In this document: positions 28,493 to 50,069 of the stretch, piece by piece
Position numbering within the stretch: the first letter of the stretch is position 1
How the letters are laid out: each line of letters starts with the position of its first letter
Position numbers and translations under genes: made by a program
The notes under the pieces: model-generated
Databases searched by the model: none
Seen by the model: only the letters and a program-made list of their open reading frames with translations
Told to the model about the DNA's origin: nothing
DNA from: Spongiibacteraceae bacterium
GTDB taxonomy: Bacteria > Pseudomonadota > Gammaproteobacteria > Pseudomonadales > Dasaniaceae
DNA length: 64,000 nt
Assembly (NCBI GenBank): GCA_028280715.1
Contig: JANQLG010000012.1
Coordinates: 62,211-126,210, forward strand
Direction of reading: 5' to 3'

Positions 28493-28539
28493 AAATTTTG
28501 TGTGCACACATCCCTTGTGCTTGTCTTTCATCCTTAAAC

Positions 28540-28614: not shown

Positions 28615-28630
28615 TCTTTCGAAAATAAAT

Positions 28631-28708: not shown

Positions 28709-28723
28709 AAAATCTTTTTACTA

Positions 28724-28798: not shown

Positions 28799-28817
28799 TT
28801 TTTGCTCATTGTAAAAG

Positions 28818-28891: not shown

Positions 28892-28898
28892 AAAAATT

Positions 28899-28972: not shown

Positions 28973-28978
28973 ACAATT

Positions 28979-29064
28979 TGGTGGGGAGGGAGTCGAACCC
29001 CCAAAGCTTTCGCGACGCGTTTACAGCGCGCTAGAGTTGCCACATCTCTTCTGTGCCTCCCCGC
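28979..29064 (-). tRNA. tRNA-Tyr(GUA)-like gene with aberrant acceptor/T-arm geometry (non-canonical or pseudo-tRNA)
   Basis: D arm AGAG-AUGUGGCAA-CUCU, anticodon arm GCGCG-CUGUAAA-CGCGU, 12-nt variable region containing GC-GAAA-GC, GGGGG-UUCGACU-CCCUC, end ...CCCCACCA. GGGGAGG can pair with CCUCCCC, but that uses nucleotides needed for the T stem. The gene is 4 nt short on the 3' side and has 4 nt extra on the 5' side. Confidence 0.4.
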
Positions 29065-29068
29065 TATT

Positions 29069-29143
29069 TGGCTGGCCTGGTAGGGGTCGAACCTACGATT
29101 CTCCGGTTAACAGCCGGACGCTTTACCACTCAGCTACAGACCA
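29069..29143 (-). tRNA. tRNA-Asn (GUU)
   Basis: Acceptor UGGUCUG/CAGGCCA (U1-A72, one U.G), D arm GCUG-AGUGGUA-AAGC, anticodon arm UCCGG-CUGUUAA-CCGGA, variable GAAUC, T arm GUAGG-UUCGACC-CCUAC, G73, encoded CCA. 75 nt. Confidence 0.85.
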
Positions 29144-31177: not shown

Positions 31178-32404
31178 TTACCCTTTTACACACACCACTT
31201 GTTTTAAGGTGTACACGATTTCCACTAAATCCTGTTGCGCCTCCATCACTTTATCGATGGGCTTGTACGCAGCCGGTGTTTCATCAATCACACCTTTGTC
31301 TTTTCGGCACTCAACATCCGCTGTTGCCTGAAGGTGCTCTTCCAAAGACACCATTTTTTTTGCTTTAGTGCGCGACATCACGCGACCTGCACCATGGCTA
31401 CAACTACAGAAGCTTTCTTCGTTGCCAAGTCCGCGAACAATGTAAGACCGAGCTCCCATGCTTCCGGGGATAATACCCATTTCACCTTCGCGAGCGCGTA
31501 CCGCACCTTTGCGTGTAACCAACACATCTTTTCCATAGTGGTGCTCGCGAGACACATAATTATGATGACAGTTCACCGCTTCCATCCGCGCCTCAAAGAT
31601 CATCCCTAATTCTTCGGTAACCGCTGCGATAACACGAGCCATCATTACTTCTCGGTTAATACGTGCAAAATTTTGTGCCCATTCCACCGCTTCGACATAC
31701 TCATCAAAATGTTCAGTACCTTCTGGCAAGTAAGACAGGTCACTATCAGGCAAATGAATATGCCAACGCTCCATATCTTTCTTAGCCACTTCAATAAAGT
31801 GCGTACCAATGCAGTTACCAACACCACGTGAGCCGCTATGCAACATAAACCATACTCGACCATACTCATCCAAACACACTTCGATAAAGTGGTTGCCAGT
31901 ACCTAAAGTACCCAGATGGTTAATGTTGTTGGTATTTTTCAATACCGGATGTTTATCTACTAACACATCAAATTGTGCTGACAGCGGCATCCAGGCTTTC
32001 ATCACATCATCAGGGACATTACACCACGCACCTTTATCCCGCTTACCGCGCAAACGCCTTGAACGACCATGCGGTACTGCTTTTTCAATCGCATCACGAA
32101 TACCGGCCAAGCTATCAGGCAACTGCTCCGCGGTCAGGCTGGTTCGCACCGCCATCATCCCGCAGCCGATATCTACTCCAACGGCTGCAGGAATCACCGC
32201 ACCTAATGTAGGAACGACGCTGCCAATTGTTGCACCCTTGCCAAGGTGGACATCCGGCATTGCCGCCACCCATTGATGAATAAAGGGCATTCGCGAAATA
32301 TTCTTTAATTGCTCTTTAGCATCTTCTTCAAAAGGAACGCCTCGGGTCCAAGTTTTGATAGGTACACCACCGTCTTGCATTACTTCATAGCGCTCTTGAG
32401 TCAT
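31178..32404 (-). CDS. rtcB: RtcB-family RNA ligase (copy 2, RtcR-controlled)
   Basis: 408 aa with strong similarity to E. coli RtcB. It is divergent from rtcR and has a sigma54 promoter upstream. Confidence 0.92.
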   Translation of the reverse strand: MTQERYEVMQDGGVPIKTWTRGVPFEEDAKEQLKNISRMPFIHQWVAAMPDVHLGKGATIGSVVPTLGAVIPAAVGVDIGCGMMAVRTSLTAEQLPDSLAGIRDAIEKAVPHGRSRRLRGKRDKGAWCNVPDDVMKAWMPLSAQFDVLVDKHPVLKNTNNINHLGTLGTGNHFIEVCLDEYGRVWFMLHSGSRGVGNCIGTHFIEVAKKDMERWHIHLPDSDLSYLPEGTEHFDEYVEAVEWAQNFARINREVMMARVIAAVTEELGMIFEARMEAVNCHHNYVSREHHYGKDVLVTRKGAVRAREGEMGIIPGSMGARSYIVRGLGNEESFCSCSHGAGRVMSRTKAKKMVSLEEHLQATADVECRKDKGVIDETPAAYKPIDKVMEAQQDLVEIVYTLKQVVCVKG

Positions 32405-32470
32405 TGCCTTGTCCTTTAAGTACTGAGTACTTATTAATAATTTTTATCCCATCTCTTTGCCTATGAGTAT

Positions 32471-32486
32471 TGCGAAGGCAGTGCCA
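32471..32486 (-). promoter_or_regulatory. Sigma54 (-24/-12) promoter of rtcB
   Basis: The minus strand reads TGGCAC-TGCCT-TCGCA, with GG and GC at consensus spacing, 67 nt upstream of the rtcB ATG. Confidence 0.75.
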
Positions 32487-32631
32487 ACATTCTTAAAAAG
32501 GTAGAAAATATTTTTATCTTATTGTTTTTAAAGGTTTTATTTTTAGCAGAGTAAAAATTCAAGAAGTTTATCATTCGATTGAATGTATATTTTTATATCT
32601 ATTTTGATATCTATATATTATATTTGATAGC

Positions 32632-34224
32632 ATGAAAACCGTAGCGATCAGCATTCTAGGTACCACTATGGACCGTCGTGGTAAGGGCGAAAAACGCTGG
32701 GACAAATGGCGCCCCACCATTTCCATGTGCCAACACGATGACCTATTGATTGATCGTCTGGAACTGCTATTCGACAACCACTCGCAGAGCCTGGCTGAGC
32801 AAGTCAAAGAGGATATCGCCCGCGTCTCTCCAGAAACCGAAGTGATTTATCACCACGTCAACTTTCATGACCCCTGGGATTTTGAAACGGTCTATGGCGA
32901 ATTGCTCGACTTTGCACGAGGCTATTCTTTTAAACCAAGTAAAGAGCGCTACCTAACACACATCACAACCGGCACCCACGTTGCTCAAATCTGCTTGTAT
33001 CTGTTGACCGAAGCTGGCTACCTGCCAGGCCAATTAATCCAAACATCCCCGGCACCTAGAAACAGTAATGTAGCAGGCCAATATCAAATTATTGATCTGG
33101 ACTTATCCAAGTACGATCAAATTGCGTCGCGCTTTAAAAAGGAGCACTTTGAAGGCACCACTTACTTAAAGGGAGGAATAAAAACCAATAACAAAGCCTT
33201 TAACCAAATGATCGAGCAATTGGAGCAGGTATCGATTCGCTCAAGTGAGCCGATTCTTTTAACTGGCCCCACCGGCGCCGGCAAATCACAACTGGCCCAA
33301 CGGATTTATTCACTAAAAAAACAGCGCGGCCTAATCAGCGGTAATTTGGTCGTCGTCAACTGTGCGACCTTAAAAGGTGAGAATGCCATGTCTGCGTTAT
33401 TTGGCCATAAGAAAGGCGCCTTTACCGGTGCAACAACCGATAGAGCAGGCCTGCTTCGCGAAGCCGATGGCGGCATGTTATTTCTGGATGAAATTGGAGA
33501 ACTTGGTACGGACGAGCAAGCCATGCTGCTACGCGCAATAGAAGATAAAAAATTTATGCCATTCGGCGCTGACAAAGAAACCACCAGCAATTTCTTATTA
33601 ATCGCTGGTACTAATCGCGATTTGAGCGGTCAAGCTCAACGGGGAGAATTCCGCGAGGATTTACACGCCCGCATTGATTTGTGGACCTATCGACTACCTT
33701 CACTTTCAGAAAGGATGGAGGACTTCGAACCAAATCTCGATTATGAACTGGAGAATTACTCCACCAAAACCGGTTATCTCATCAGCTTTAACAAAGATGC
33801 CAGAAAAAAATACCTGCAGTTCGCAACATCGACAGAAGCCACATGGTCAGCCAATTTTCGGGACCTCAATGCCAGCATTACACGCATGGCAACCCTGGCC
33901 AATGGCGGTAGGATTACTGTAAGCGTCGTTAATGAAGAAATTGACCGACTGCAACACAAGTGGCAATCGACAAGCAATAAAAGCCACACCAATGACACAA
34001 CATTACTCAAATCCATTCTCGGTGAAAACAAGATTAAGTCACTGGACTTATACGAGCAGATGACACTAGCACCGGTATTAAAAATTTGTCAAAGCGCCAA
34101 CTCTATGGCCGAAGCAGGAAGAATCCTCTTCAATGTGAGCCGGGAGCAGAAAAAATCCAATAACGACTCACATCGGATAAAACAGATCCTGGATAAACAC
34201 CAGATTAAGTTTGGCGACCTATGA
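32632..34224 (+). CDS. rtcR: RtcR, CARF-domain sigma54-dependent transcriptional activator
   Basis: 530 aa. It has an N-terminal CARF-like region, an AAA+ sigma54-interaction core (LLTGPTGAGKSQLA, GAFTGA, LFLDEIGEL) and a C-terminal HTH. It is divergent from rtcB as in E. coli. Confidence 0.9.
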   Translation: MKTVAISILGTTMDRRGKGEKRWDKWRPTISMCQHDDLLIDRLELLFDNHSQSLAEQVKEDIARVSPETEVIYHHVNFHDPWDFETVYGELLDFARGYSFKPSKERYLTHITTGTHVAQICLYLLTEAGYLPGQLIQTSPAPRNSNVAGQYQIIDLDLSKYDQIASRFKKEHFEGTTYLKGGIKTNNKAFNQMIEQLEQVSIRSSEPILLTGPTGAGKSQLAQRIYSLKKQRGLISGNLVVVNCATLKGENAMSALFGHKKGAFTGATTDRAGLLREADGGMLFLDEIGELGTDEQAMLLRAIEDKKFMPFGADKETTSNFLLIAGTNRDLSGQAQRGEFREDLHARIDLWTYRLPSLSERMEDFEPNLDYELENYSTKTGYLISFNKDARKKYLQFATSTEATWSANFRDLNASITRMATLANGGRITVSVVNEEIDRLQHKWQSTSNKSHTNDTTLLKSILGENKIKSLDLYEQMTLAPVLKICQSANSMAEAGRILFNVSREQKKSNNDSHRIKQILDKHQIKFGDL

Positions 34225-38095: not shown

Positions 38096-38629
38096 TTATT
38101 CAAAATTAGTAATAAGATATTGCCTTAACTGGTGTTTATTCGGATGTTGATCAAGCCACTCTTTAAAGACATCGAGCTTATCAAAATCATCCGGACTCAA
38201 TTGCTGCCTATAATGCTCTTTTAAATTTTCTTTCTGCTTCTCAATACGAATGTTTCGTTGCCAAGCATCCGTAAAAATGGAAGGCAGTTTAGTGTGATTA
38301 TCCTGCGACTTAAGTAACTGCCACTCACCCTTATCGAGCCATACTTCATCACAATAACTACAGAGTTCAATTTTATTATTAGATTCAGCACCTATTTGAA
38401 ACTTTGTCATCAGGCGGGAACATTTGGGGCATAGTTTGGCTTTACCAACATCTTCAACGACTACGTCGTCTAAGTCTCCTTTATCAACATCAATATTTTG
38501 ATCAATCCAGTAACGGTAATTGATTAATGGTAACAATACACCTTCGCACTTCGGGCAAGCAGCAGCAACCAAACCTTCATCTATAGATACTGGAGCCAAT
38601 CGATAACCCTTACATTGCGTACAATTCAT
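38096..38629 (-). CDS. Double zinc-ribbon protein (TFIIB-type zinc-ribbon-like)
   Basis: Two CxxC...CxxC units (CTQCKG..CPKCEG; CPKCSR..CSYCDE). Confidence 0.5.
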   Translation of the reverse strand: MNCTQCKGYRLAPVSIDEGLVAAACPKCEGVLLPLINYRYWIDQNIDVDKGDLDDVVVEDVGKAKLCPKCSRLMTKFQIGAESNNKIELCSYCDEVWLDKGEWQLLKSQDNHTKLPSIFTDAWQRNIRIEKQKENLKEHYRQQLSPDDFDKLDVFKEWLDQHPNKHQLRQYLITNFE

Positions 38630-38672
38630 AAATAATCCCCTACTCTATTAGTTATTTCCGCACCGATCTAAA

Positions 38673-39515
38673 CTAGGACCGCGGCATACAGCAACGCTTA
38701 TAACGTTTGCCACTACCACAGGGACAGGGTGCTTTTTTTCTGGGCTTGATATCTTCAGCAATGGCCAACACCTCTTGCTGGTAAAATTCTGTTAATGATT
38801 CATACAAATGTGGATGCTTATTTTTTAATAACTGCGGCCTTTCAAAAAAGTACTCCGATGCCACTGCAAAAAACTCTGCACGATTACTAGCACCATAATC
38901 GCGAATATTGCTACGCCTGCTATCAATTTCTTTAATTTTCTTTTCTATCAGATCAAACCAGGGTATCGAAAATCTAAATGCCTGTAGTCTTTCAGGAAAA
39001 CCATCACAGTCGCCATCAGCCATATCCACTAGATGGGCGAATTCATGGATACCAACATTTTTTTTATCCCTACTATTTTCAAACCCTGAATAGAGATGAG
39101 GCCGACTTAGTGCCATTTTGCCAGTCATAGGCCCTGTGCCCACCATACCACTTATGGTTGAATCTGGCTGCCCACACTCAAAGTTTTCATTAAAAACTCC
39201 TGGAAATAGATAGACTGCTCTTAAATTGAAGTAATGCCACTTAGGAAAGCCCCATACAGGAATGATTGCACTGGCAGCCACTAGCAAACAGTCTTCATCA
39301 GACACTTCAATTTGACCTGCCTCTACAGCTGTAGTTTGTAAAAAAAGCAGTGATCGCTGTTGAAAAAGTATTTTATCTTTATCATTTAATGTGCGGTAAA
39401 AAACTACCTTATCATTAAGGAAGTCTGACCAAGACTGTTGCCAAGTTATTACTTGTTTGGATTTATTAAACCCAAACAACTGACGTAACCATTGCTTTAG
39501 CTGACTAAACATCAA
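38673..39515 (-). CDS. MtfA-like (M90) zinc peptidase with C-terminal SEC-C motif
   Basis: GIHEFAHLVD (HExxH) in an MtfA-like context. The C-terminus is CPCGSGKRYKRCC. Confidence 0.65.
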   Translation of the reverse strand: MMFSQLKQWLRQLFGFNKSKQVITWQQSWSDFLNDKVVFYRTLNDKDKILFQQRSLLFLQTTAVEAGQIEVSDEDCLLVAASAIIPVWGFPKWHYFNLRAVYLFPGVFNENFECGQPDSTISGMVGTGPMTGKMALSRPHLYSGFENSRDKKNVGIHEFAHLVDMADGDCDGFPERLQAFRFSIPWFDLIEKKIKEIDSRRSNIRDYGASNRAEFFAVASEYFFERPQLLKNKHPHLYESLTEFYQQEVLAIAEDIKPRKKAPCPCGSGKRYKRCCMPRS

Positions 39516-39545: not shown

Positions 39546-40121
39546 TTATAGGCGCCCATAACTTCTCCTTAGCAAAGTGGTCTTGGTGGCAATGGCACCA
39601 CATACCACACCTGCCACCACACCGAATAGATGTGACTCAAAGGACACGCCAGTTTGTATTGGCAAAATCCCATAAATCATTCCGCCATAAAAGAAGATGA
39701 CAAATAGGGCAATGGCAATATTTTTAAAACTGCGATCAAACCAGGCGATAGTAATGGATAAACTCCATAGACCAAATATCCATCCGCTAGCACCAATATG
39801 ACTGGCTTCTCTGCCAAATAACCAGACCAGTATGCCGGTTACTAAGATAATGATCAGACTGCTGATAAGGTAGAAGCTGACCGGCCGCACTAAACAGATA
39901 GCACTAAAAATACTTAAGCCAATGATGTTATTGATTAAGTGCCAATAGCTGCCATGGATAAATGGCGCAGTAATGATGTGGTACCAGTTTTCCGGTGAAC
40001 GAGGAATAATGCCGTATTGATTAAATTGTCCATCCAGTATGATATTGAAAATGTGGATAATACTGATCAACATTACCACACAGGTAATAACTCGTACTCT
40101 TAACCACAAAGAGCTCGTCAT
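39546..40121 (-). CDS. Rhomboid-family intramembrane serine protease
   Basis: Six TM segments, HLINN and GASGWIFGL (catalytic Ser) and a distal His (ESHLFG). Confidence 0.75.
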   Translation of the reverse strand: MTSSLWLRVRVITCVVMLISIIHIFNIILDGQFNQYGIIPRSPENWYHIITAPFIHGSYWHLINNIIGLSIFSAICLVRPVSFYLISSLIIILVTGILVWLFGREASHIGASGWIFGLWSLSITIAWFDRSFKNIAIALFVIFFYGGMIYGILPIQTGVSFESHLFGVVAGVVCGAIATKTTLLRRSYGRL

Positions 40122-43100
40122 TACTCATCTCTCTTAGGTGACTTCTTTGATGACCGTTTTGGAGAGCTTTCTATAACTTGGGCTTCAGCCACGTGGGTTT
40201 CGAGATTACGCAACTGCTCAGAAATATCTTTCATTTTATTATGCGTACGAAGATCAATTTCCAGTTTTTTATCCATACTTCGCACTAAAGGAAAAATACT
40301 ATGCTCAATGGTTTCTGCCAGAACAGTCAGCACTTTATCAATTCCGGGTACAGGTTCATTAACGACTTTTACTGATGGTTTACTCTGCTTAACAACATCT
40401 GCCAGCTTATCGACAACATTCGCTAATTCCTGTGAAGATCTATCACTGCCACTCACTGATGACGTACTTACCTGAGTGGCTACATCTTTTAATTCTTGAA
40501 CACCATTGACCAAATCCACTAACTGGGCAACCACTTTTCCACCCACATCCGCATCATCACCACCCATGGCTTTATTACGCAGAAAATCCTTTTTAATTTG
40601 CTGCCAACGTCGCCCCTCTTCCGCCGTAATATTGCCTCGAAGTTCTACTAATTTGAGCAAATTGTCTTCTGCCCCCGTGGTGAGCAATTGCGCTTCACCC
40701 AAATAATGATCTGCAATCATCTGCATTAATTCTTCTTCATTCATTACTGCAGAAATTTTTTCCGTCATTTTATTCATGTTGCGATAACTGCCCTGTAGTT
40801 TAAAGGCAGGTTCGGTGCGATATTTATCATCCTGCGCTGCTGATGCGATATACTGCTGGTTAATTTTTAGGACGACATCCTGGACAACAAACATTTTTTT
40901 CAGGATTTCGGTGATTTCATTAATTTCTGCACCACTGTATGAATGGCTCAAATCAGTAGTAGCAACATTCGCTCCTTTGGCCATATTAATCAGTTTGTAG
41001 ACATCATCCATTTCACGCACTGCTAGTGGAGCTAATACGGAATTAGAGGTCAGCGCATTCTCGACATAACTCAAAGCAAACTGCTCATCCATGCCACCTA
41101 AAATATCACCCAAGTTATAAATATCGGCACGGTTAGCCAGCATATCCGGTATTTTGAAAGCTTCACCGGATTCGGTATAAGGATTACCGGCCATTACCAC
41201 ACAGAATTTTCGACCGCGCATATCATAGGTTTTGGTGGCACCTTTCCAAACACCTTCAATACGGCGCGTACCATCACACAGCGAAATAAATTTTTGCAGA
41301 AATTCGGGATGGGTATGTTGTATATCGTCTAAATACAACATTACATTGTTACCCATCTCCAGCGCTAAATTTAACTTGCCGAGCTCTTGCCTTGCAGTAG
41401 CATTGGGTGCCTGCTCTGGGTCCAGTGATAAAACATCATGACCTAGGGAAGGGCAATTGATCTTCATAAAGATCAAGCCCAAGCGATTAGCCACATATTC
41501 CATCAAGGTGGTTTTACCGTAGCCTGGCGGAGAGATCATCATCAACAAACCCATGAGGTCGGTACGCTTGTTTTCACCAACAGTGCCCATTTGCTTGGCC
41601 AGATTGTCACCAATTAACGGCAAGTAGGATTCATTGATTAATCGATTACGCACAAAGGAGCTGAGCGGCCTTGGCTTGAATTCTTCTAACCGCAGTTTTT
41701 CTCGCTGTTCTTTTATGGTGTTTTGGCGCAACTCTAAATAATGATGATAGGAAGGCACCACTTCGAAGCGATGTTTTTCCATACGCTGCAAATAAGAATC
41801 CAACGAAAATTGTAGCTGTCGATTTTCTATTGTCGGGTGATCGCCTAATAGCCCTTCTATTGTTAGTTCCAGATCCACCTCGGTTAAACGGCGCTCTAAA
41901 CGTTCATCGGCATTAATGAGAGCCACTGCTTCTGGGATATACCCTTCCATGCCTTCGAGGTTTTTTTCTTTGATTAGTGCATCCAACCAAGCCGTCGATA
42001 AGTTCCAACGCTCTGCTGGCCATCCCATCATTTTATCCAAGGCCATTTGATAACGCCGCCAGGTACTATCATCCATGGAGCGTTTTAATTCCTCGACCAA
42101 ATAGGTGGCATATTTGCTGCCGATAAATTCGACCCTTTCTCGACCCAATTCAGCCACTAAATAATCGGCCGCTCGGCGAATATCCAACTCATTAACAGGA
42201 ATCGGATGCAACTCAACAAAAACAGTCAGCGCCTCGCGCACTTCACTTGCTAATAACTCAATAGCTTCTGAACTAGCAAAAACCGATTGCATTTGGGCGG
42301 CAGACTGTGCTCGTTCTGGCCAAGTGGTGAAAGATAGCGCCTCACGCTCCGCTTCACTGGGTTTGTTTTTGGCTAAATTTTTTATATTGGCCCAGAATAC
42401 TTGTGCCAATCCGCGACTTAATGGATCATAGCGCAACAAGTCAGCACGATCGATAGCAGGTATTAAAGCTTTTAATAACAACACCGCATCGTGATCGTGA
42501 ACACCCTTCTCATATCCCTCTTTATAGCGGGGCGCAGCAAAATCTCTCACTAAGGCGTTAATCAATTCATCATCCAATAAACTCTGCTGTAGTTTATCCG
42601 CCGTCAATTCATTCTGTTGGTGCTTGGCCGCTTCAATGATTAAAGATGCCAGATACTCTGACCGATAGACCTCTGGTGTCTCAGACTCCAGTGACATATC
42701 CCAATAATCACGCATTGCTTGTAAATCGGAGTGAGTAATAGGCTCATAAAAATCGGTACCCGTTAAATGCAAATTTAATGCGCCACTACGAGGGATAATG
42801 GTTAAATCCAGCTCCTGAGTATTAACTGAAAACTTATGGCGAGGCCCTAGTTTTATAATATTACCGCCATCTTCAAAGATATCTGTTTTATCACGCAACG
42901 AACGTAACGCTTGTTCTTTAATTGCTTTAAAGCGAGCCTCAACGTCATCGGCTTTTACCGCGCTATCCAACTCACGCAATTGTTCAATCAGCTCACGAGC
43001 TTTCAGCACTAAAGCGTCGGAGGCAAAATACGTATTTAATTCATCCGCCTCTGTAAATTTAAGCGAGCGTTTTTCTATACTAGCAAGAATACGATCGGCA

Positions 43101-45448
43101 GCATCGGTAATCGATTGCGCTTTTCGCTGACGCTCATCGAGTAATTGCTGTTTATGGCTTTCAAAGGATTCATATATTTCCTCACGCTTATCCATTATAT
43201 CTGCAAGGAATTGATCAAAATTTGTGAACTGGCTTTCCAACTCTTCCAATTGCACTAGCAAGCGGGACAGTTGTTCGTCACATTTTTCCGGCGTTGTTGC
43301 CAAGCCTAATGCGTTGGTAATACTTTGAGAAAATAATTTAAACTGTGCACCGAACTGAGCAACGGCTTCTTCTGAACCGAGATTTTTCTGTTTATGCTTG
43401 GCATTAGCTTTGCTCTGATTCAGTTTTGAATAAACCTGGGAAATGGCATCAATGATACAGGTACGAACAGTGGCATCTTCGACCTTTAAGGTTCCCATTA
43501 ATTCTGATAATAAATCCAAGCCTGATGCTGTTGTTTCAATAGTATCTATTAATGGCTGCAGAGCAGCATTGGTCTCAGCCTGATCGACTTCTTTATTAAG
43601 CGTATCAATTTTTATCAGGTATGGCTCAAGTGCTTTTTCATCGGAGAGGAAAACCACCGTCTGTTCACTGAGAGACTCTTCTGTACGCTGTAGCTCCTGA
43701 TCCAACTCTTCAATGCGAGCAACATCGATATATCGATTGTCTTTAATGGTGGTGAGGTGGCCACGCTGGCGCCGCAGCTTTCCCAATGCATCGACAAACT
43801 CTTCAGCTGTTTCCCAGTTTTCTGAGCGAATAACCTGCAGCAATTCTTCCTGATCACGTTCAGCCTCCAGCATAGTTTTCGCCGATTGCTGGCGAATACT
43901 TTCGACTTTTTCAAATTCATCAATGACCAATTCTGAAGTCGATGAGATCTCTTTAAGAGTCACTGCTATATCTTGGGTTTCGGTATCTTCAACCCAATAG
44001 TGATCATCAAAAACCTTTTTCGCTGCCTTGCTCAGCTCTTCATACAAACGTAGCGACACTGACTGATTGTCAATCCTTCGACAAATACTATATAAGTCGG
44101 ATACACCTCGCACCAACTCAGCATTACCGATCCTGCCAAAAAATGTTTGGCTGGCAGGTGCTTTACTGGCAAATTCTGTGCTCTGGTAGGGCGTTTGCCA
44201 AATTTGCATAGGATGTACACGTATGGGTTCTTCTTCGGCGGAAAAAATAACCAGCTGACCATTTTCTGCCAGAGCATAACCATGGCTATAAATAGGATTT
44301 TGTAATTGTTTTTCGATCAGGTTGTAGGCAAATAATCCAACATTGCCCTCTTCTTGTTCATAGAAAACATAGAGAACATCTTCTCCATTGGGTGAACGAA
44401 TAGATCGCTTAAACTTTAAGCCTGCAACCTCTTCATCAAAGGCCTTGTATTCGCCCGTTTGTAAGTAGTAACCACCGGGAAATATCAATCCATGATCTTC
44501 AGGCAGCTGCACACAGGACTGCCCAATGGCATCAACACGTAATACTTTTTGGATTAAGGTGTTATAGATATAATAACGCCAGCGCTCTTCTTGGTAAGGT
44601 CTGATTTTTAACAGTATTAAGCTACCAACTGCAGCATAAGCTATTTGCGCATCATCCAGTGATTGAGTTTTATCTTCGACTGACTCCCGATAAACCCCTA
44701 ATCCATCTTCAGTATTATTTTCGATTTTGATGGTAAGGTCACCGCCCAAGGTTTCAACGAACACGGTGTCAAGCACATTAATGTGAGGATGACGGCCATG
44801 AATGGCGTCTTCTCGTGTCGTATCAATCCATTCAAAATCGTACTCGGGAGGCAGTTGAATATCGCGCTCGCCACGATTATCGATATAGCGCAATTCCTTT
44901 TCATCAGCCGAAACTGACCAGCGAAAGACGCGAATATCTTCAAGTCGCTCACCAATTTGAAAACCTGCCAACAACTTACCATCTTTAATAGTAAGCTCAA
45001 CCAGCTTGGTATGTTTGTAGTAACGATATAACTCTTCAAAATCACTAACAAAACTACTCTGGGTTAAAAAAGTACCCGCCAGCGATACTGGCTCCATTTC
45101 ATAGTTGCCGTCTGTCTGCTTAATATCAAACAACGCAAACACATCTTCAATTTTGGTTTCTTTTTTAAGACCAATAAAGACGTTGTAACCAAAGAGTAGA
45201 TGATCACCTACCTGGACGATATCTCTGGCAATGCAGTTATTTTCTGTGCGCACTCGAACTCGAGCGAGTACATCCATATCCAAACTACCAAATTCTTCTA
45301 AGCGAGACTCATTAAGCGCCTGTACTTTTTGGCTGAGCGTTTGCCCCTGGCTTACCAGGCGCTTGCGAATAATGTCGTAAGCACCGCCTTCGGCTACTGC
45401 GCTGTCGACTATATCGTTAGCTTCCACAGCCTGCTCTTGCTGTTCCAT
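40121..45448 (-). CDS. Giant (1775 aa) AAA+ ATPase with long coiled-coil region
   Basis: Walker A ISPPGYGKTT (41507..41530) and Walker B VMLYLDDIQ. The N-terminal ~450 aa are non-helical, the middle ~800 aa are helical, and the C-terminal tail is KR-rich. The start overlaps the rhomboid gene end by 1 nt. Confidence 0.75.
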   Translation of the reverse strand: MEQQEQAVEANDIVDSAVAEGGAYDIIRKRLVSQGQTLSQKVQALNESRLEEFGSLDMDVLARVRVRTENNCIARDIVQVGDHLLFGYNVFIGLKKETKIEDVFALFDIKQTDGNYEMEPVSLAGTFLTQSSFVSDFEELYRYYKHTKLVELTIKDGKLLAGFQIGERLEDIRVFRWSVSADEKELRYIDNRGERDIQLPPEYDFEWIDTTREDAIHGRHPHINVLDTVFVETLGGDLTIKIENNTEDGLGVYRESVEDKTQSLDDAQIAYAAVGSLILLKIRPYQEERWRYYIYNTLIQKVLRVDAIGQSCVQLPEDHGLIFPGGYYLQTGEYKAFDEEVAGLKFKRSIRSPNGEDVLYVFYEQEEGNVGLFAYNLIEKQLQNPIYSHGYALAENGQLVIFSAEEEPIRVHPMQIWQTPYQSTEFASKAPASQTFFGRIGNAELVRGVSDLYSICRRIDNQSVSLRLYEELSKAAKKVFDDHYWVEDTETQDIAVTLKEISSTSELVIDEFEKVESIRQQSAKTMLEAERDQEELLQVIRSENWETAEEFVDALGKLRRQRGHLTTIKDNRYIDVARIEELDQELQRTEESLSEQTVVFLSDEKALEPYLIKIDTLNKEVDQAETNAALQPLIDTIETTASGLDLLSELMGTLKVEDATVRTCIIDAISQVYSKLNQSKANAKHKQKNLGSEEAVAQFGAQFKLFSQSITNALGLATTPEKCDEQLSRLLVQLEELESQFTNFDQFLADIMDKREEIYESFESHKQQLLDERQRKAQSITDAADRILASIEKRSLKFTEADELNTYFASDALVLKARELIEQLRELDSAVKADDVEARFKAIKEQALRSLRDKTDIFEDGGNIIKLGPRHKFSVNTQELDLTIIPRSGALNLHLTGTDFYEPITHSDLQAMRDYWDMSLESETPEVYRSEYLASLIIEAAKHQQNELTADKLQQSLLDDELINALVRDFAAPRYKEGYEKGVHDHDAVLLLKALIPAIDRADLLRYDPLSRGLAQVFWANIKNLAKNKPSEAEREALSFTTWPERAQSAAQMQSVFASSEAIELLASEVREALTVFVELHPIPVNELDIRRAADYLVAELGRERVEFIGSKYATYLVEELKRSMDDSTWRRYQMALDKMMGWPAERWNLSTAWLDALIKEKNLEGMEGYIPEAVALINADERLERRLTEVDLELTIEGLLGDHPTIENRQLQFSLDSYLQRMEKHRFEVVPSYHHYLELRQNTIKEQREKLRLEEFKPRPLSSFVRNRLINESYLPLIGDNLAKQMGTVGENKRTDLMGLLMMISPPGYGKTTLMEYVANRLGLIFMKINCPSLGHDVLSLDPEQAPNATARQELGKLNLALEMGNNVMLYLDDIQHTHPEFLQKFISLCDGTRRIEGVWKGATKTYDMRGRKFCVVMAGNPYTESGEAFKIPDMLANRADIYNLGDILGGMDEQFALSYVENALTSNSVLAPLAVREMDDVYKLINMAKGANVATTDLSHSYSGAEINEITEILKKMFVVQDVVLKINQQYIASAAQDDKYRTEPAFKLQGSYRNMNKMTEKISAVMNEEELMQMIADHYLGEAQLLTTGAEDNLLKLVELRGNITAEEGRRWQQIKKDFLRNKAMGGDDADVGGKVVAQLVDLVNGVQELKDVATQVSTSSVSGSDRSSQELANVVDKLADVVKQSKPSVKVVNEPVPGIDKVLTVLAETIEHSIFPLVRSMDKKLEIDLRTHNKMKDISEQLRNLETHVAEAQVIESSPKRSSKKSPKRDE

Positions 45449-45521
45449 ATCACTTTCCTTAAGCTCAAACAGTGGTTAATAAAAGAGGCAGAGACATTTC
45501 ACCCCTGCTATGAAAACCTGA

Positions 45522-47471
45522 TCAGGCCTTCTCTTGCTCTTCATTAACGGCTGTTGGCTTGCCGTCGATGATGCGGCCAATCAGCGCTGCAATGGTATCG
45601 CTCTTATCAGCCAAACCGTCTACAGCTTTACCAATTGACAAGGACTTGGCGAAATTATTAAAGAAGTGATCTTCTCCACCCACGATATCAATTTTGGCTT
45701 TCTGTAGGGCAACAGCCAGCACTTCAGCATTTTCTCTGGCGATATCCTTACCCGCATCAATTGAAGCCAATGCTTCTTTCAGCGCGGTTTCTAGCCCCAT
45801 GCGATATTCCTCGTGCTCTCGCGCATCAGCACTCATACTGTTCATGGCTTCGAATTTATCTACTAAGCCGTCTGCTTCCGCCTTAAATTGCTCACGAGTC
45901 ACATCGGCACCGGCCATACCTATTTCTTTAGCTGCCTGCGCTTCTGAATTACCTTTGGCGGCTATGACTTCAGCCTCAGCTTTACCCGTTTCACGTTGTG
46001 CGCTAGCTTCCGCATCGCCTTTAGCCTTAACAACAGTAGCTTCTGCCAAACCTTCTTTTTCCTGCGCATCGGCTTTCGCTTCCTGAACTTTGGCATCAGC
46101 CAAACCAGGTGCCGCACGCTCAGCCTGAACACCTTCGGCCAGTTTTTTCTTAGCATCGGCTTCTTTGGCCGCAGCTTCCAGTTCTGCTTGCGCAATGGTC
46201 GTTATTTCAATCGCTTTATGTTTTGCAGAAAGCTCTTCAGCCTCAGCCGCTTTGACTTGCTTAACCTTTTCCTCATCAGCCTGAGCTTCAGCTGCTAACA
46301 CTTGCGTTTGTTTCGCACGGTCAGCTTCAGAGACTTCACGAACTTCCTTAATACGTTCCTCTTCTATAGCAACGGTCTTATCAACGGCAACACGTTCACG
46401 AATAACATTAGCAATTTCTTTTTTCTCAACTTCCACCGCTTTCTCAGCTTCAATTCTTTGCAACTCCACCTCACGTTCTCTGGCAACAATTTCCAAATCA
46501 CGTGCACGTGTTACTTTTTCTTCTTCTATCGCTACAGCACGCTGACGATTTTGCTCTGCTACTTCAATTTCACGCTTTTGATTTTCAGTTTGTACTGATA
46601 GATCTTGTTCAACTTGAATAGTAGTTGCCTCTGCTTTGCGCCGTTCTTCTTCCTGAACTTTCTTGGTTTCTGCTTCTTCACGAGCACGGATAGTGGCAAT
46701 TTCACGCTCTTGTTTCGCTTCTGCATCTGACTGTTGACGCTCTAATTCAAGCATCGCCTCAACTGTTTCGACATTTTTCTTCTTAATGGCTAACTCTTCG
46801 TCGCGCTCAAGAATATTGGTCCGAATATTTTGCTCAGCAGTTAATTCCGTAATTTTCTTAATACCTTCAGCATCAAGGATATTAGAGGGATCAAGTGAAG
46901 CCTTTGGTGTCTGCTCTAAATAATCAATGGCCACATCTTCTAATACATAACCGTTCAGGTCATCACCGATAACCCGAATAATTTTTTCACGGAATTCCTG
47001 GCGATTTTCAAACAACTTAACAAAATCGATTTGTTTACCCACTGTTTTTAAGGCTTCAGAAAACTTTGCATTGAATAACTGATTAACAGCTTCTTTATCC
47101 GACGCTCTTCCCGCCCCAATGGATTTAGCAACCTTTAACACATCATCGGCTGTTTCATTCACTCTTAGATAGAATGCAACGGTTATATCCGCCCTCATAT
47201 TATCCGCACAAATCAAACCATCCTGGCCTCGGCGATCAACCTCAAGGGTGATTAATGAAATTTTCATTAATTCCTTTTTATAAATAATGGGATACACCAA
47301 AGCACCGGTAAAATGGACCTTTGGTTTAGCACTCATATCATTAACAATTAATGCTGTACCCTGCTCAACCTTTACATAGAACGACTTAAATAATGCGGCA
47401 AACCCCATAAGAATGACAAAAAAGATGCCGACTCCCATAATGATGGGCATAAGAACTGATAGATCAGCCAT
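45522..47471 (-). CDS. Flotillin-like SPFH protein (YqiK-type) with very long E/A/K coiled coil
   Basis: N-terminal TM segment, then SPFH core, then ~350 aa of EAKR-rich heptad-like sequence. Confidence 0.85.
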   Translation of the reverse strand: MADLSVLMPIIMGVGIFFVILMGFAALFKSFYVKVEQGTALIVNDMSAKPKVHFTGALVYPIIYKKELMKISLITLEVDRRGQDGLICADNMRADITVAFYLRVNETADDVLKVAKSIGAGRASDKEAVNQLFNAKFSEALKTVGKQIDFVKLFENRQEFREKIIRVIGDDLNGYVLEDVAIDYLEQTPKASLDPSNILDAEGIKKITELTAEQNIRTNILERDEELAIKKKNVETVEAMLELERQQSDAEAKQEREIATIRAREEAETKKVQEEERRKAEATTIQVEQDLSVQTENQKREIEVAEQNRQRAVAIEEEKVTRARDLEIVAREREVELQRIEAEKAVEVEKKEIANVIRERVAVDKTVAIEEERIKEVREVSEADRAKQTQVLAAEAQADEEKVKQVKAAEAEELSAKHKAIEITTIAQAELEAAAKEADAKKKLAEGVQAERAAPGLADAKVQEAKADAQEKEGLAEATVVKAKGDAEASAQRETGKAEAEVIAAKGNSEAQAAKEIGMAGADVTREQFKAEADGLVDKFEAMNSMSADAREHEEYRMGLETALKEALASIDAGKDIARENAEVLAVALQKAKIDIVGGEDHFFNNFAKSLSIGKAVDGLADKSDTIAALIGRIIDGKPTAVNEEQEKA

Positions 47472-47518: not shown

Positions 47519-48214
47519 TTAGCTTCCAGAAAATTCTTGCTCAGAAACAACGCGGTATACGTTTTCTTCTTTTAAATGCTCCAACAGCACAACGCGATCT
47601 CCTTTTACGAATTCATCATCACCTGTTGCTCTCACTTTGAGAATAAGCCCCGCCCCACCATCTTCTAACATAGCCTCACCAAAACCCTGATCAACTCGAG
47701 AGGTTCTGACAATCGCCGTCTGGCCTAATATATGTTTTACGGTTTGTTGTTGTGCTTTTTTGAATAACGGCCTTAATGGCTTAATAACAACGGCGGTTAT
47801 CATAACCGCTACGTATAGCGACCCGAATAAAATGGGGATTCCGACTAAAAACTCTAAAAAAGCACCTGGAACTAGGCCAAATAGAAAATGAACGGCATAG
47901 TAGGATAACAGCCATCCAAACAAAGATATAAACGAGATAATGACGGTGACGGGAACGCCATGCAGACCAAACCTCAACATCAGCCCGGCCAACACATCGG
48001 GATTTGATAACCCATCTGCATCAACAGCAAATGCACCGTCAGTTTCAGGAAGATCAAAATCGAGAATGTCAATTTCTACAAATCCCAAAACAGCAACCAA
48101 CCAATACAGAACGGTAATAGCTAAGAAAAACGTAAAGAAAACGGTCGGGAATGAAGCAATATTTTGGTAAAACGGATCCATTCCCTCCGTTAAAAAAATT
48201 GCAAACATTCCCAC
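47519..48214 (-). CDS. YqiJ/NfeD-like membrane protein (OB-fold C-terminus)
   Basis: Four TM helices plus a C-terminal soluble beta domain. It lies directly upstream of the flotillin gene, as yqiJ-yqiK do in E. coli. Confidence 0.6.
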   Translation of the reverse strand: MGMFAIFLTEGMDPFYQNIASFPTVFFTFFLAITVLYWLVAVLGFVEIDILDFDLPETDGAFAVDADGLSNPDVLAGLMLRFGLHGVPVTVIISFISLFGWLLSYYAVHFLFGLVPGAFLEFLVGIPILFGSLYVAVMITAVVIKPLRPLFKKAQQQTVKHILGQTAIVRTSRVDQGFGEAMLEDGGAGLILKVRATGDDEFVKGDRVVLLEHLKEENVYRVVSEQEFSGS

Positions 48215-48988: not shown

Positions 48989-49618
48989 CTAGCTGGCTTC
49001 TACGGAAAGGTTTAAGAATTCGCTATAGGCTTCCGTCGCCTGTATAACGTTACTTGCCAAAACTTCTATCTCGAAAATCACATTCGACAAAATAGATGTT
49101 GAACTCAGCGCACCAAACATGTGGTAGTAATCACCATTTTTTCCAAGACTATCGAGACTAATGGTGGAAAGAGGGAAATACTTATGAGTTCTTAAGATCG
49201 TTTCATTAAAACGATTAACATCAACCACTTCATCAACTGACCACAGTACCGCTTCAACAATAATCTGTTCACCAGATACCGTTAGGAAAACCGGCAAATC
49301 CCCATACTCCCCCATAACAACATGCAGGGCAGGCTCCACACCATCAATCAATTCAATGGTTGCTCGGCCACTAGAAAACAAATCAGACTCCTTTAGCGAC
49401 TCAAACAAGCTACTGGTCGTCCAACTATTGGTATTCTCAGTCATGCTTCTTTCTCCTTTTACTGTATTTAACTCACCAGGCATACGCAGTTGCTTTTCCA
49501 ACTCAGTCAACCTCCCAGCGTTCTCCGGAAGAATCCAAACCTCCTTCTTCACCAACCCCTGCTCACGCAAGCGGCGTCGGTATTCACGCTGATAATATGC
49601 TGATGACTTTGCTTTCAT
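48989..49618 (-). CDS. YjfI-like (DUF2170) protein with basic N-terminal extension
   Basis: The C-terminal 130 aa align by eye with E. coli YjfI (YGDLP.F..VSGEQIIVE..., YYHMFGALSSTSILSNVIFEIEVLASN). The ATG at 49618 is preferred. Confidence 0.65.
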   Translation of the reverse strand: MKAKSSAYYQREYRRRLREQGLVKKEVWILPENAGRLTELEKQLRMPGELNTVKGERSMTENTNSWTTSSLFESLKESDLFSSGRATIELIDGVEPALHVVMGEYGDLPVFLTVSGEQIIVEAVLWSVDEVVDVNRFNETILRTHKYFPLSTISLDSLGKNGDYYHMFGALSSTSILSNVIFEIEVLASNVIQATEAYSEFLNLSVEAS

Positions 49619-50069
49619 GGCCAAACTATAATTTGTTACATGTGATATTGCAAATAATTTTACATGTAACAAAAAATAAACTCCTATCTATTTGATTTTA
49701 TTAATATAAATAAAAACCAAAAACACTCACCACCCCAAAAAGATGGAAGTTTTAATCAGCAGAAAGGAGAAAATAGAGAGAAGACCGCAACATTTTCCTA
49801 TGCATTATTATGTTTATTGGTTGCTATTATCTTGAAGCATTGCAGCTTATATCATTACAAAATTATTTTTATAAAGCGACACCCAATAAATCACAGCTTT
49901 ATTACAGGAGCAATAATTAGGAATTGTAATTACTAAACAAAAAAACAGCTCAATCAAAACTGAAGCTTTGCAGTTATAGCCTAGATTAGCCTCTTAAACG
50001 GACGTTTAATAGCACGCATGAGTTCCGCCAAACATGCTTCAGCTGCCTTCAACTCCTTAGAAAACTGAA

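What the first reader, a model, noticed from the sequence alone, without database searches (positions are those of the whole stretch)
40121..45448. 1775-aa single-AAA+ protein with about 1300 aa of non-ATPase N-terminal sequence
Seen: one Walker A (PPGYGKTT at 41507..41530, residues ~1307-1314) and a DD-type Walker B lie near the C-terminal quarter. The first ~450 aa look beta-rich, with repeated short strands. Residues ~450-1250 are helical with many charged heptads. The extreme C-terminus is a KR/S-rich tail (SPKRSSKKSPKRDE). Inference: a mechanochemical protein with a long lever or scaffold. Proteins of this type are often generically annotated as DNA repair ATPase without evidence.
Basis: seen in the sequence. 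Interest (0 to 1): 0.5.

Follow-up and report, generated by a model that had tools for sequence, protein, structure and literature searches.

The report
Giant flotillin-operon AAA+ ATPase (BacE-like)
This 1775-residue protein belongs to a widespread, uncharacterised bacterial family usually mislabelled "DNA repair ATPase"; it joins a beta-propeller, a rod of helical bundles and one MoxR/RuvB-like ATPase, and is almost always encoded directly after a membrane flotillin and its NfeD partner, often with a PspA membrane-stress protein.

Summary
ORF 40121..45448 (-) encodes 1775 aa, with the Walker A exactly where stated and an invariant DD Walker B. It has a beta-rich N-terminus, a long helical middle and one C-terminal AAA+ module.

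It is an ortholog of Pfam DUF3686 "DNA repair ATPase", which is BacE (PA3728/PA14_16190) of the Pseudomonas aeruginosa bac operon. The family has more than 7000 sequence clusters.

AlphaFold models (pLDDT 84-85) show:
- a beta-propeller (residues 59-418);
- spectrin/talin-like helical bundles (424-857);
- a small beta domain and a second helical domain;
- an AAA+ core with a pre-sensor-1 hairpin, closest to MoxR-type CbbQ/NorQ, RuvB and MCM, not to Vps4.

The catalytic residues are invariant. Nothing supports DNA repair.

In all 77 of 80 related loci where the upstream DNA is present, the gene directly follows a YqiK-type flotillin, usually with an NfeD/YqiJ-like membrane protein. PspA with DUF2170 occurs in about 55/80, a downstream rhomboid in 36/80 and a PLD-like gene in 31/80. 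The flotillin triad persists down to about 30% identity.

Best reading (inferred): a ring ATPase docked on the flotillin dome that remodels flotillin/PspA membrane-stress assemblies.

This is a known unknown, a new member of a known kind. It is interesting mainly as a candidate energy-dependent regulator of SPFH cages.

The parts
40121..45448 (-). BacE-like giant AAA+ ATPase gene (1775 aa + stop)
   Evidence: ORF. Pfam DUF3686 at E=2e-208, plus DUF7902, AAA and AAA_5. 58% identical to the P. paraeruginosa ortholog (L043).
45290..45448 (-). N-terminal helix (residues 1-53)
   Evidence: AlphaFold: H2-20 and H22-53. R30 and R49 are invariant in 45 diverse sequences.
44195..45274 (-). Beta-propeller domain (residues 59-418; core of Pfam DUF3686)
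   Evidence: About 28 strands, pLDDT about 90. Foldseek hits to WD40/DCAF1, paraoxonase, tricorn/trilobed and prolyl-oligopeptidase propellers at E=6e-6 to 1e-3. Blade number was not verified.
42878..44179 (-). Rod of long helical bundles (residues 424-857; includes DUF7902 at 605-688)
42737..42859 (-). Small conserved beta domain (residues 864-904)
   Evidence: Five strands. 73-80% identity across 80 loci. G868 is invariant; F873, G897 and T898 are nearly invariant.
41900..42664 (-). Second helical domain (residues 929-1183) carrying the conserved EGYxKGVHDxDA motif (977-988)
   Evidence: H984 and D987 are invariant. No Pfam hit.
41099..41665 (-). AAA+ alpha/beta core (residues 1262-1450)
   Evidence: AlphaFold pLDDT above 90. 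Foldseek best matches are CbbQ2, RuvB, NorQ and MCM. 80-96% identity across 80 loci.
41507..41530 (-). Walker A PPGYGKTT (residues 1307-1314; K1312)
   Evidence: G, Y, G, K, T invariant.
41324..41341 (-). Walker B MLYLDD (residues 1370-1375), followed by the invariant Q1377 and H1378
   Evidence: strand beta3, 1369-1374.
41222..41263 (-). Pre-sensor-1 beta-hairpin (residues 1396-1409; W1401, Y1408)
   Evidence: Two strands between helix alpha3 and strand beta4 in the model. The consensus keeps GVW and TYD.
41129..41185 (-). Sensor-1 N1422 to candidate arginine finger R1440 (AGNP...IPDMLANRAD)
   Evidence: N1422 and R1440 are invariant. R1440 sits at the end of helix alpha4, just before strand beta5.
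40559..41098 (-). Lid and further conserved helices (residues 1451-1630), including the candidate sensor-2 R1556 (QGSYR)
   Evidence: Q1552, G1553, S1554, Y1555 and R1556 are invariant.
40124..40558 (-). Variable C-terminal helices and the non-conserved KR/S tail (residues 1631-1775; tail at 40124-40165)
   Evidence: Low pLDDT. 6-42% identity, with gaps.
45522..47471 (-). BacD: flotillin (YqiK-type SPFH protein), 649 aa, one N-terminal transmembrane segment
   Evidence: BLASTP against E. coli YqiK: 31% identity over 479 aa, E=7e-47. Transmembrane scan. Adjacent to the ATPase gene in 77/80 loci.
47519..48214 (-). BacC: NfeD/YqiJ-like multi-pass membrane protein with a C-terminal OB-like region, 231 aa
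   Evidence: Weak match to E. coli YqiJ, E=0.013. Transmembrane segments. Found in 73/80 loci. The P. aeruginosa counterpart is called 'short NfeD' (PMC13086221).
48282..48968 (-). BacB: PspA/IM30 (ESCRT-III superfamily) protein
   Evidence: Pfam PspA_IM30 at E=2.5e-49. Found in 54/80 loci.
48989..49672 (-). BacA: DUF2170 / CesT-Tir-like protein (true start probably the ATG at 49618)
   Evidence: Pfam DUF2170. NCBIfam BacA scores 319 bits against a 300-bit cut-off. Found in 55/80 loci.
39546..40121 (-). Rhomboid intramembrane protease; its start overlaps the ATPase stop codon (TAATG)
   Evidence: Pfam Rhomboid at E=1.3e-18. GASG, SHLFG and WHLINN motifs are intact. Overlap shown. A homolog lies in the flanks of 36/80 loci, directly downstream in most.

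Best explanation
The gene encodes a cytoplasmic ATPase of about 200 kDa. It is the BacE ortholog and a member of the DUF3686 family. I propose it is the energy-consuming component of a flotillin-centred membrane-stress module.

Proposed mechanism:
1. The C-terminal AAA+ domain is MoxR/RuvB-like, with a pre-sensor-1 hairpin, an intact Walker A, a DD Walker B, sensor 1, an arginine finger and sensor 2. It assembles into a ring, probably a hexamer.
2. The N-terminal beta-propeller and the rod of spectrin-like helical bundles dock that ring onto the cytoplasmic dome. The dome is built by the flotillin BacD, which is anchored together with the NfeD-like BacC.
3. ATP binding and hydrolysis open, disassemble or reshape the flotillin assembly. 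Where the PspA polymer (BacB) and its DUF2170 partner BacA are present, it acts on them too.
4. This controls access to, and turnover of, a patch of stressed inner membrane. Co-encoded membrane enzymes act on that patch: a rhomboid here and a PLD-like hydrolase in many relatives.

Shown: domain architecture, AAA+ clade, conservation of catalytic residues, operon linkage, and co-induction of the P. aeruginosa orthologs under stress.

Inferred: oligomeric state, physical docking on flotillin, and the remodelling activity with its direction.
For: Architecture and fold:
- Two AlphaFold models, pLDDT 85.3 and 83.7.
- The AAA+ core is closest to CbbQ2/NorQ (MoxR), RuvB and MCM, E=3e-7 to 1e-5.
- A hairpin lies between helix alpha3 and strand beta4.

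Catalytic residues: K1312, D1374, D1375, N1422, R1440 and R1556 are invariant in 46 sequences, down to 40% identity in the C-terminal region.

Location: BacE has no transmembrane segment, BacD has one, and BacC has several.

Linkage in 80 species:
- BacD occurs in 77/80 and BacC in 73/80. For BacD, and mostly for BacC, the gene is missing only where the contig ends.
- BacA is in 55/80, BacB in 54/80, rhomboid in 36/80 and PLD-like in 31/80.
- BacD is a flotillin: E=7e-47 against YqiK.
- 5 of 7 family members at 30-34% identity keep an NfeD-like gene plus a flotillin gene directly upstream, and a sixth (on a cut contig) keeps the flotillin. PspA or TelA lies beside two of them.

Literature:
- bacA-F is one transcript, and BacB-F all rise 6- to 13-fold in a bacA mutant (PMC10948618).
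- PA3728-PA3732 are induced by phage infection (PMC12041424).
Against: - There is no direct evidence of a BacE-BacD or BacE-PspA contact. Multimer modelling was not available.
- One distant member (Aureibacter, Bacteroidota, 28% identity) stands alone, without a flotillin neighbour.
- E. coli has YqiJ-YqiK without this ATPase, so flotillin does not need it.
- The loop between strand beta2 and helix alpha2 has no aromatic pore-loop residue, so a threading unfoldase mechanism is doubtful.
- A DD Walker B may mean slow, switch-like hydrolysis.
- Deleting the P. aeruginosa flotillin (paFlo3) gave only about 20% less biofilm (PMC13086221).
Confidence: 0.45

Rival explanations
1. Client-processing engine of a flotillin-organised quality-control hub. 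In this reading BacE does not act on the scaffold. It extracts or remodels damaged membrane proteins gathered under the flotillin dome and hands them to the co-encoded rhomboid or PLD. This would parallel FtsH inside HflK/C, m-AAA with prohibitin, or the SLP2-PARL-YME1L hub.
For: - SPFH + AAA+ + rhomboid are in one operon, with the rhomboid start overlapping the BacE stop codon. Rhomboid occurs in 36/80 loci and PLD-like in 31/80.
- The rhomboid keeps its catalytic Ser and His motifs.
- Precedent: the SLP2 scaffold with the PARL rhomboid and the YME1L AAA protease (Wai et al. 2016, as cited in PMC7966987). FtsH-HflK/C is established knowledge.
- W1401 and Y1408 in the pre-sensor-1 hairpin could engage a substrate.
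Against: - BacE has no protease domain and no transmembrane segment.
- It has no canonical aromatic pore loop 1.
- Its closest AAA+ folds (MoxR-type CbbQ/NorQ, RuvB) remodel a defined partner rather than thread polypeptides.
- The rhomboid and PLD are each absent from more than half of the loci, whereas flotillin is constant.
Confidence: 0.2
2. A bacterial functional analogue of Vps4. The main substrate would be the PspA (ESCRT-III-like) polymer, which BacE disassembles or recycles, with flotillin serving only as the recruiting platform.
For: - PspA and its DUF2170 partner lead the operon here and in about 55/80 loci. PspA sits next to one distant member.
- Reviews note that bacteria lack a Vps4-like ATPase for PspA (PMC7619361). 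Ravi et al. suggested ATP-dependent remodelling for PspA-AAA+ pairs (PMC11237479).
- An SPFH protein recruits PspA to the membrane in B. subtilis (PMC8581546).
Against: - About 25/80 loci lack PspA and DUF2170 within 10 kb upstream but keep the flotillin-NfeD-ATPase triad. An example is the Xenorhabdus four-gene unit.
- The AAA+ fold is not of the classical Vps4/katanin/p97 type; no such protein is in the top 50.
- There is no MIT-like domain.
Confidence: 0.12
3. An ATP-regulated scaffold or tether (a switch, not a motor). Nucleotide state would control oligomerisation of a long rod-like protein that links flotillin domes to other cytoplasmic or membrane partners.
For: - The Walker B is DD instead of DE, with an invariant DDIQH. 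From my own knowledge, this resembles the DnaA-type switch ATPases.
- The spectrin/talin-like bundle rod is typical of linkers.
- The propeller-plus-helical architecture weakly resembles clathrin and IFT-A coat proteins (low TM-scores).
Against: - The arginine finger, sensor 1 and sensor 2 are all invariant, as expected for a hydrolysing ring.
- The AAA+ core is the most conserved part of the protein (80-96% identity).
Confidence: 0.15
4. A genuine DNA repair or chromosome-partition ATPase, as the database names say.
For: Only names: 'DNA repair ATPase/protein' in NCBI and UniRef and the Pfam DUF3686 description. RuvB is among the fold matches.
Against: - ruvB scores 15 bits against a 299-bit cut-off.
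- There is no ABC/SMC-type split ATPase head and no DNA-binding domain.
- The neighbours are all membrane proteins.
- Coiled-coil composition produces spurious SMC/JetC hits even for PspA. That is the likely origin of the name (inference).
Confidence: 0.02

Closest known systems
BacE (PA3728 / PA14_16190) of the Pseudomonas aeruginosa bacABCDEF 'biofilm-associated cluster'; Pfam DUF3686 family
   Same: - Ortholog: 58% identity over the full length to P. paraeruginosa.
- Same gene order: DUF2170-PspA-NfeD-like-flotillin-ATPase.
- Same Pfam architecture.
   Different: - The sixth gene is a PLD-like hydrolase in P. aeruginosa-group genomes. Here it is a rhomboid, followed by an M90 peptidase and a Zn-ribbon protein.
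- No sigma-54 promoter like the reported one is evident here.
- BacE itself has never been characterised biochemically (PMC10948618).
MoxR-family AAA+ ATPases of the CbbQ/NorQ type
   Same: - Best structural matches of the ATPase module (6l1q E=3e-7; 9qh4 to 9qh9).
- The motif pattern D(E/D)I...hairpin...NP...IP..L.NR resembles them.
- Pfam AAA_5 scores 24.7 bits against a 22-bit cut-off.
   Different: - Only 12-16% identity.
- No VWA-domain partner in the neighbourhood.
- No helix-2 insert in the model.
- Walker B is DD rather than DE.
- A 1250-residue N-terminal extension and a roughly 300-residue C-terminal extension.
RuvB / MCM (pre-sensor-1 hairpin AAA+ motors)
   Same: A pre-sensor-1 beta-hairpin, an arginine finger at the end of helix alpha4, and fold matches at E about 1e-6.
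   Different: No DNA-binding or RuvA-binding domains. The ruvB model scores far below its cut-off. The genomic context is membrane-related.
Vps4 with ESCRT-III
   Same: An AAA+ ATPase encoded with an ESCRT-III-superfamily protein (PspA). A remodelling role is plausible.
   Different: A different AAA+ clade, no MIT domain and no classical second region of homology. The linkage is tighter to flotillin than to PspA.
SPFH cage plus AAA+ partner systems (HflK/C-FtsH, prohibitin-m-AAA, SLP2-PARL-YME1L)
   Same: An SPFH scaffold genetically coupled to an AAA+ protein and, in 36/80 loci, a rhomboid.
   Different: BacE is soluble and has no peptidase domain. It is cytoplasmic like the YqiK-type dome, not membrane-embedded.

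Membership tests
Pfam DUF3686 / 'DNA repair ATPase' family (BacE orthologs) | Full-length match to PF12458, together with DUF7902 and a C-terminal AAA module | tested here: met
   PF12458 at E=2e-208 covers profile positions 2-448 of 448. DUF7902 matches at E=5e-27. AAA and AAA_5 match at residues 1302-1425. Homologs share the same domain set.
Pfam DUF3686 / 'DNA repair ATPase' family (BacE orthologs) | Synteny with NfeD-like and flotillin genes directly upstream | tested here: met
   Window order is BacC-BacD-BacE. Flotillin is present in 77/80 loci and the NfeD-like gene in 73/80.
MoxR AAA+ family | AAA+ core with both a helix-2 insert and a pre-sensor-1 hairpin | tested here: inconclusive
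   The pre-sensor-1 hairpin is present (1396-1409). No hairpin is predicted in helix alpha2. The best fold hits are MoxR-type CbbQ/NorQ, but at 12-16% identity.
MoxR AAA+ family | Partner protein with a VWA/MIDAS domain encoded nearby | tested here: not met
   No VWA domain occurs in any operon gene here or among the neighbours examined in relatives.
Vps4-type classical AAA ATPase | MIT domain, classical-clade fold, and an aromatic pore loop 1 | tested here: not met
   No MIT hit. No Vps4, katanin or p97 in the top 50 fold matches. The loop 1332-1350 (CPSLGHDVLSLDPEQAPNA) lacks an aromatic residue.
RuvB | Score at or above the NCBIfam TIGR00635 cut-off; a winged-helix DNA-binding domain III | tested here: not met
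   15.1 bits against a 299-bit cut-off, and only the Walker A region matches. The profile search against the PDB hits only that segment.
SMC/Rad50/SbcC-type 'ATPase involved in DNA repair' | ABC-type head split by a coiled coil: Walker A at the N-terminus, signature motif and Walker B at the C-terminus | tested here: not met
   There is a single P-loop at 1307-1314 inside an AAA+ fold. The N-terminus is a propeller.
Known anti-phage defence systems (PADLOC) | Match to a PADLOC model | tested here: not met
   No hit for BacE, BacD, BacC or BacA.
Active ring-forming AAA+ ATPase (general) | Conserved Walker A Lys, Walker B acidic pair, sensor 1, trans-acting Arg, and sensor 2 | tested here: met
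   K1312, D1374/D1375, N1422, R1440 and R1556 are invariant in 46 diverse sequences. Hexamer formation itself is not testable with these tools.

The most novel reading that the evidence does not exclude
BacE-type proteins may be the first dedicated, ATP-driven openers or disassemblers of SPFH/flotillin cages. A MoxR/RuvB-like ring, held on the flotillin dome by a propeller and a spectrin-like rod, would gate access to the enclosed membrane patch during envelope stress. It would also couple flotillin to PspA (ESCRT-III-like) repair, making it a bacterial counterpart of Vps4 that evolved from a different AAA+ clade.
Probability: 0.3. Interest if true: 0.8.

Novelty: new member of a known kind. 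Interest (0 to 1): 0.45.

Why it matters
SPFH proteins (flotillin, HflK/C, prohibitin, stomatin) are now known to build closed cages on membranes. How these cages open, turn over or release clients is unknown. Reviews also stress that bacteria lack a Vps4-like ATPase for PspA.

This family is highly conserved: 52-78% identity across gamma-, beta- and zeta-proteobacterial orthologs, and more than 7000 sequence clusters. It is welded genetically to a flotillin-NfeD pair and often to PspA. That makes it the obvious candidate for the missing energy input, and it is testable in P. aeruginosa, where mutants exist.

The result also argues that the widespread annotation 'DNA repair ATPase' should be dropped. 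For this particular window the gene is an ordinary ortholog, so the value lies in the family, not in this locus.

Tried and rejected
- **Sequence search of the PDB** with the protein and with a 45-sequence profile. Only the Walker A segment matched (E>=1.6e-3), so no solved relative exists.
- **Pfam on sub-regions** 424-860, 860-1250 and 1450-1775 at E<=5. Nothing appeared beyond DUF3686 and DUF7902.
- **Pfam on BacD and BacC** at E<=10. No hits. BacD's identity had to be shown by BLASTP against E. coli YqiK.
- **PADLOC.** No defence-system match, so the defence reading is rejected.
- **Foldseek hits to dynein, IFT-A and clathrin.** These have TM-scores of about 0.1 and were treated as architecture-level noise.
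- **Sigma-54 promoter search upstream of bacA.** The only hit is a weak GG-N10-GC site about 400 nt upstream, and pattern counts across the window are no higher than in shuffles. Sigma-70 and terminator scans were also not above shuffles.
- **Naming the source organism.** The cluster look-up returned no names. The closest named relatives are Cellvibrionaceae, with Teredinibacter at 82%.
- **A second, degenerate AAA+ domain in residues 860-1250.** I considered this. The predicted secondary structure (five strands, then helices) does not fit that fold.

Full report
**1. The observation**

The ORF at 40121..45448 on the minus strand is real: ATG start, 1775 codons.
- PPGYGKTT is residues 1307-1314.
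- The Walker B is MLYLDD (1370-1375).
- The C-terminal peptide SPKRSSKKSPKRDE is present.
- Pfam gives DUF3686 ('ATPase involved in DNA repair') over residues 38-484 at E=2e-208. It also gives DUF7902 (605-688) and weak AAA, AAA_22 and AAA_5 hits at 1300-1425.
- A protein search found 7103 clusters at E<=1e-5. The top hits, 70-85% identical, come from Cellvibrionaceae such as Teredinibacter, Gilvimarinus and Pseudoteredinibacter. Their sources name them 'DNA repair ATPase', 'AAA family ATPase' or 'MoxR-like ATPase'.
- A library of 50%-identity representatives holds 466 clusters at E<=1e-30. Full-length members of 1550-2036 aa reach down to 28% identity.

**2. Anatomy**

Two AlphaFold models built on about 45 diverse sequences gave mean pLDDT 83.7 (residues 1-1200) and 85.3 (residues 1200-1775). 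The layout is:
- an N-terminal helix (to residue 53);
- a beta-rich domain of about 28 strands (59-418);
- long helices, up to 58 residues, packed as bundles (424-857);
- a small five-stranded domain (864-904);
- a second helical domain (929-1183);
- an AAA+ alpha/beta core (strands at 1302-1305, 1326-1331, 1369-1374, 1415-1421 and 1442-1444) with a beta-hairpin at 1396-1409 between helix alpha3 and strand beta4, which is a pre-sensor-1 insert;
- a lid and further helices to about 1630;
- poorly conserved long helices and the tail.

Fold comparisons:
- Foldseek matched the N-terminal model to WD40, paraoxonase, tricorn and prolyl-oligopeptidase propellers (E=6e-6 to 1e-3). It also matched propeller-plus-helix giants at very low TM-scores.
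- For the ATPase, Foldseek ranked the MoxR-type CbbQ2 (6l1q, E=3e-7), RuvB, NorQ and NorQD, and MCM subunits first, at 12-16% identity. No Vps4, katanin or p97 chain was in the top 50.

The protein has no predicted transmembrane segment.

**3. Conservation**

- Across 80 orthologs from gamma-, beta- and zeta-proteobacteria, the AAA+ core is 80-96% identical and the propeller 60-83%.
- The linker region 1026-1250 is 27-49% identical. The tail 1751-1775 is 6% identical with 44% gaps.
- In 46 sequences down to 40% identity over the C-terminal part, these residues are invariant: K1312, D1374, D1375, Q1377, H1378, N1422 (sensor 1), R1440 (end of helix alpha4, the canonical arginine-finger position) and R1556 (QGSYR, candidate sensor 2).
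- The loop between strand beta2 and helix alpha2 has no aromatic residue. W1401 and Y1408 sit in the pre-sensor-1 hairpin.

This is an active, selected ATPase. Its pore chemistry is not that of classical threading unfoldases.

**4. Context in the window**

All neighbours are co-directional with short gaps.

| Coordinates | Product | Evidence |
|---|---|---|
| 48989-49672 | DUF2170, BacA | NCBIfam BacA 319 bits against a 300-bit cut-off |
| 48282-48968 | PspA/IM30 | Pfam, |
| 47519-48214 | 231-aa multi-pass membrane protein | see below |
| 45522-47471 | 649-aa protein with one N-terminal transmembrane segment | see below |
| 40121-45448 | the ATPase | see above |
| 39546-40121 | rhomboid | start overlaps the ATPase stop codon (TAATG) |
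| 38673-39515 | M90 peptidase with SEC-C motif | Pfam, |
| 38096-38629 | Zn-ribbon protein | Pfam, |

- The 649-aa protein has no Pfam hit even at E<=10. It aligns to E. coli flotillin YqiK at 31% identity over 479 residues, E=7e-47.
- The 231-aa protein weakly matches YqiJ in its C-terminal OB-like part (E=0.013).
- The rhomboid keeps GASG, SHLFG and WHLINN.
- Upstream lie thrS...pheST, an HU/IHF gene, a MerR gene and tRNA-Pro with a terminator. The unit therefore starts at bacA.

**5. Context elsewhere**

In 80 genomes with up to 10 kb of flank, tblastn gave these counts:

| Neighbour | Loci |
|---|---|
| Flotillin | 77/80 |
| NfeD-like protein | 73/80 |
| DUF2170 | 55/80 |
| PspA | 54/80 |
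| Rhomboid | 36/80 |
| PLD-like HKD hydrolase | 31/80 |
| Zn-ribbon protein | 19/80 |
| M90 peptidase | 1/80 |

- For flotillin, and mostly for the NfeD-like gene, the gene is missing only where the contig is cut.
- The PLD-like hydrolase is the gene directly after the ATPase in P. paraeruginosa.
- Xenorhabdus has just NfeD-like, flotillin, ATPase and rhomboid.
- In one zetaproteobacterial MAG, two PDDEXK transposase-like genes are inserted between the flotillin and the ATPase. This is a mobile-element interruption.
- Of seven distant family members (28-34% identity), five keep an NfeD-like gene plus a flotillin directly upstream, and a sixth, on a cut contig, keeps the flotillin. In two of these the flotillin does hit Pfam Band_7. 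PspA or TelA lies alongside in three.
- The exception is Aureibacter (Bacteroidota), where the gene stands alone.

The invariant partner is therefore the flotillin-NfeD pair, not PspA.

**6. What is known**

- Ravi et al. [quoted passage not shown] They noted that abbreviated flotillin/YqiJ/ATPase operons are more widespread.
- In P. aeruginosa the cluster is bacABCDEF. PA14_16190 and PA14_16200 were added as bacE and bacF. All six genes are co-transcribed, and BacB-F rise 6- to 13-fold in a bacA mutant (PMC10948618).
- PA14_16180 is the flotillin PaFlo3, and PA14_16160 is a short NfeD (PMC13086221).
- PA3728-PA3732 are induced in all phage-infected samples (PMC12041424) and in a stressed suppressor strain (PMC13637947). 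PA14_16190 is among the top RsmA-repressed genes (PMC8855297).
- No paper in the searched library mentions DUF3686 or reports any biochemistry of the ATPase.
- A 2025 review states that a Vps4-like ATPase appears absent in bacteria (PMC7619361).

**7. Interpretation**

The membrane-directed context, the cytoplasmic location, the intact ring-ATPase residues and the docking-type N-terminal domains make one reading the most economical. BacE is the ATP-driven remodeller of the flotillin (BacD)-NfeD (BacC) assembly and, where present, of PspA polymers. Rhomboid or PLD enzymes act on the same membrane patch. I give this 0.45.

Rivals:
- A client-processing hub analogous to FtsH-HflK/C or SLP2-PARL-YME1L (0.2; precedent cited in PMC7966987).
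- A nucleotide-switch scaffold (0.15; the DD Walker B resembles the DnaA-type DDIQ motif, from my own knowledge).
- A PspA-specific Vps4 analogue (0.12; weakened by the roughly 25 loci that lack PspA).
- DNA repair (0.02). This rests on names only. ruvB scores 15 bits against a 299-bit cut-off. Coiled-coil bias also gives PspA spurious SMC and JetC hits.
- Defence-system membership is not supported.

**8. Verdict**

The finding is real and correctly described. It is an ortholog of an already catalogued but functionally uncharacterised family, so this locus is a new member of a known kind. The interest is moderate. It attaches to the family as a candidate energy source for SPFH-cage and PspA dynamics, and to correcting the 'DNA repair' label.

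Noticed in passing
window 49633..49672 (- strand): A perfect 11-bp inverted repeat, TTGTTACATGT-N18-ACATGTAACAA, lies directly upstream of the probable true BacA start (ATG at 49618). A sigma-70-like TTGCAA-17-TATAGT (49653..49625) overlaps it. This is a candidate operator and promoter of the operon. The only sigma-54-like site is a weak GG-N10-GC match at 50016-50030, although the P. aeruginosa operon is reported to be RpoN-dependent.
   Followed up: partly
window 45488..45508 (- strand), BacD-BacE intergenic region: A 9-bp stem-loop followed by a T-rich tract lies between the flotillin and ATPase genes. It could attenuate read-through and so set a high flotillin-to-ATPase ratio. The terminator-like count in the region is no higher than in shuffles.
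   Followed up: no
window 38096..39515 (- strand): An MtfA-like M90 metallopeptidase with a SEC-C motif and a Zn-ribbon protein follow the rhomboid on the same strand with 30-43 nt gaps. The M90 gene accompanies the operon in only 1 of 80 related loci and the Zn-ribbon gene in 19 of 80. They are probably lineage-specific additions.
   Followed up: partly
window 42485..42520 (- strand); BacE residues 977-988: The motif EGYxKGVHDxDA (H984 and D987 invariant in 45 diverse homologs) sits at the start of a helix in the second helical domain. No Pfam or fold match explains it.
   Followed up: no
window 45522..47471 (- strand): The flotillin BacD is 70-89% identical across 77 genomes, even through its charged coiled-coil region (residues about 200-475). 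That is unusually high for a coiled coil. It has no Pfam Band_7 hit, although two distant orthologs do.
   Followed up: partly
window 27571..29143 (- strand): A cluster of eight tRNA genes: Met, Leu, Lys, Pro, Cys, Gln, His, Asn.
   Followed up: no
window 31178..34224: RtcR, the sigma-54 activator (32632-34224, +), lies divergent from a 408-aa ORF (31178-32404, -) that is probably rtcB. It is unrelated to the finding.
   Followed up: no
L059 8024..9924: In a zetaproteobacterial MAG, two tandem PDDEXK_2 transposase-like genes (306 and 311 aa) are inserted between the flotillin and the ATPase genes.
   Followed up: yes
L084 12001..13221; L088 11502..12608: A TelA (toxic anion resistance) gene sits next to two distant members of the ATPase family, taking the place that PspA holds elsewhere. 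This hints that TelA and PspA may be interchangeable partners.
   Followed up: partly
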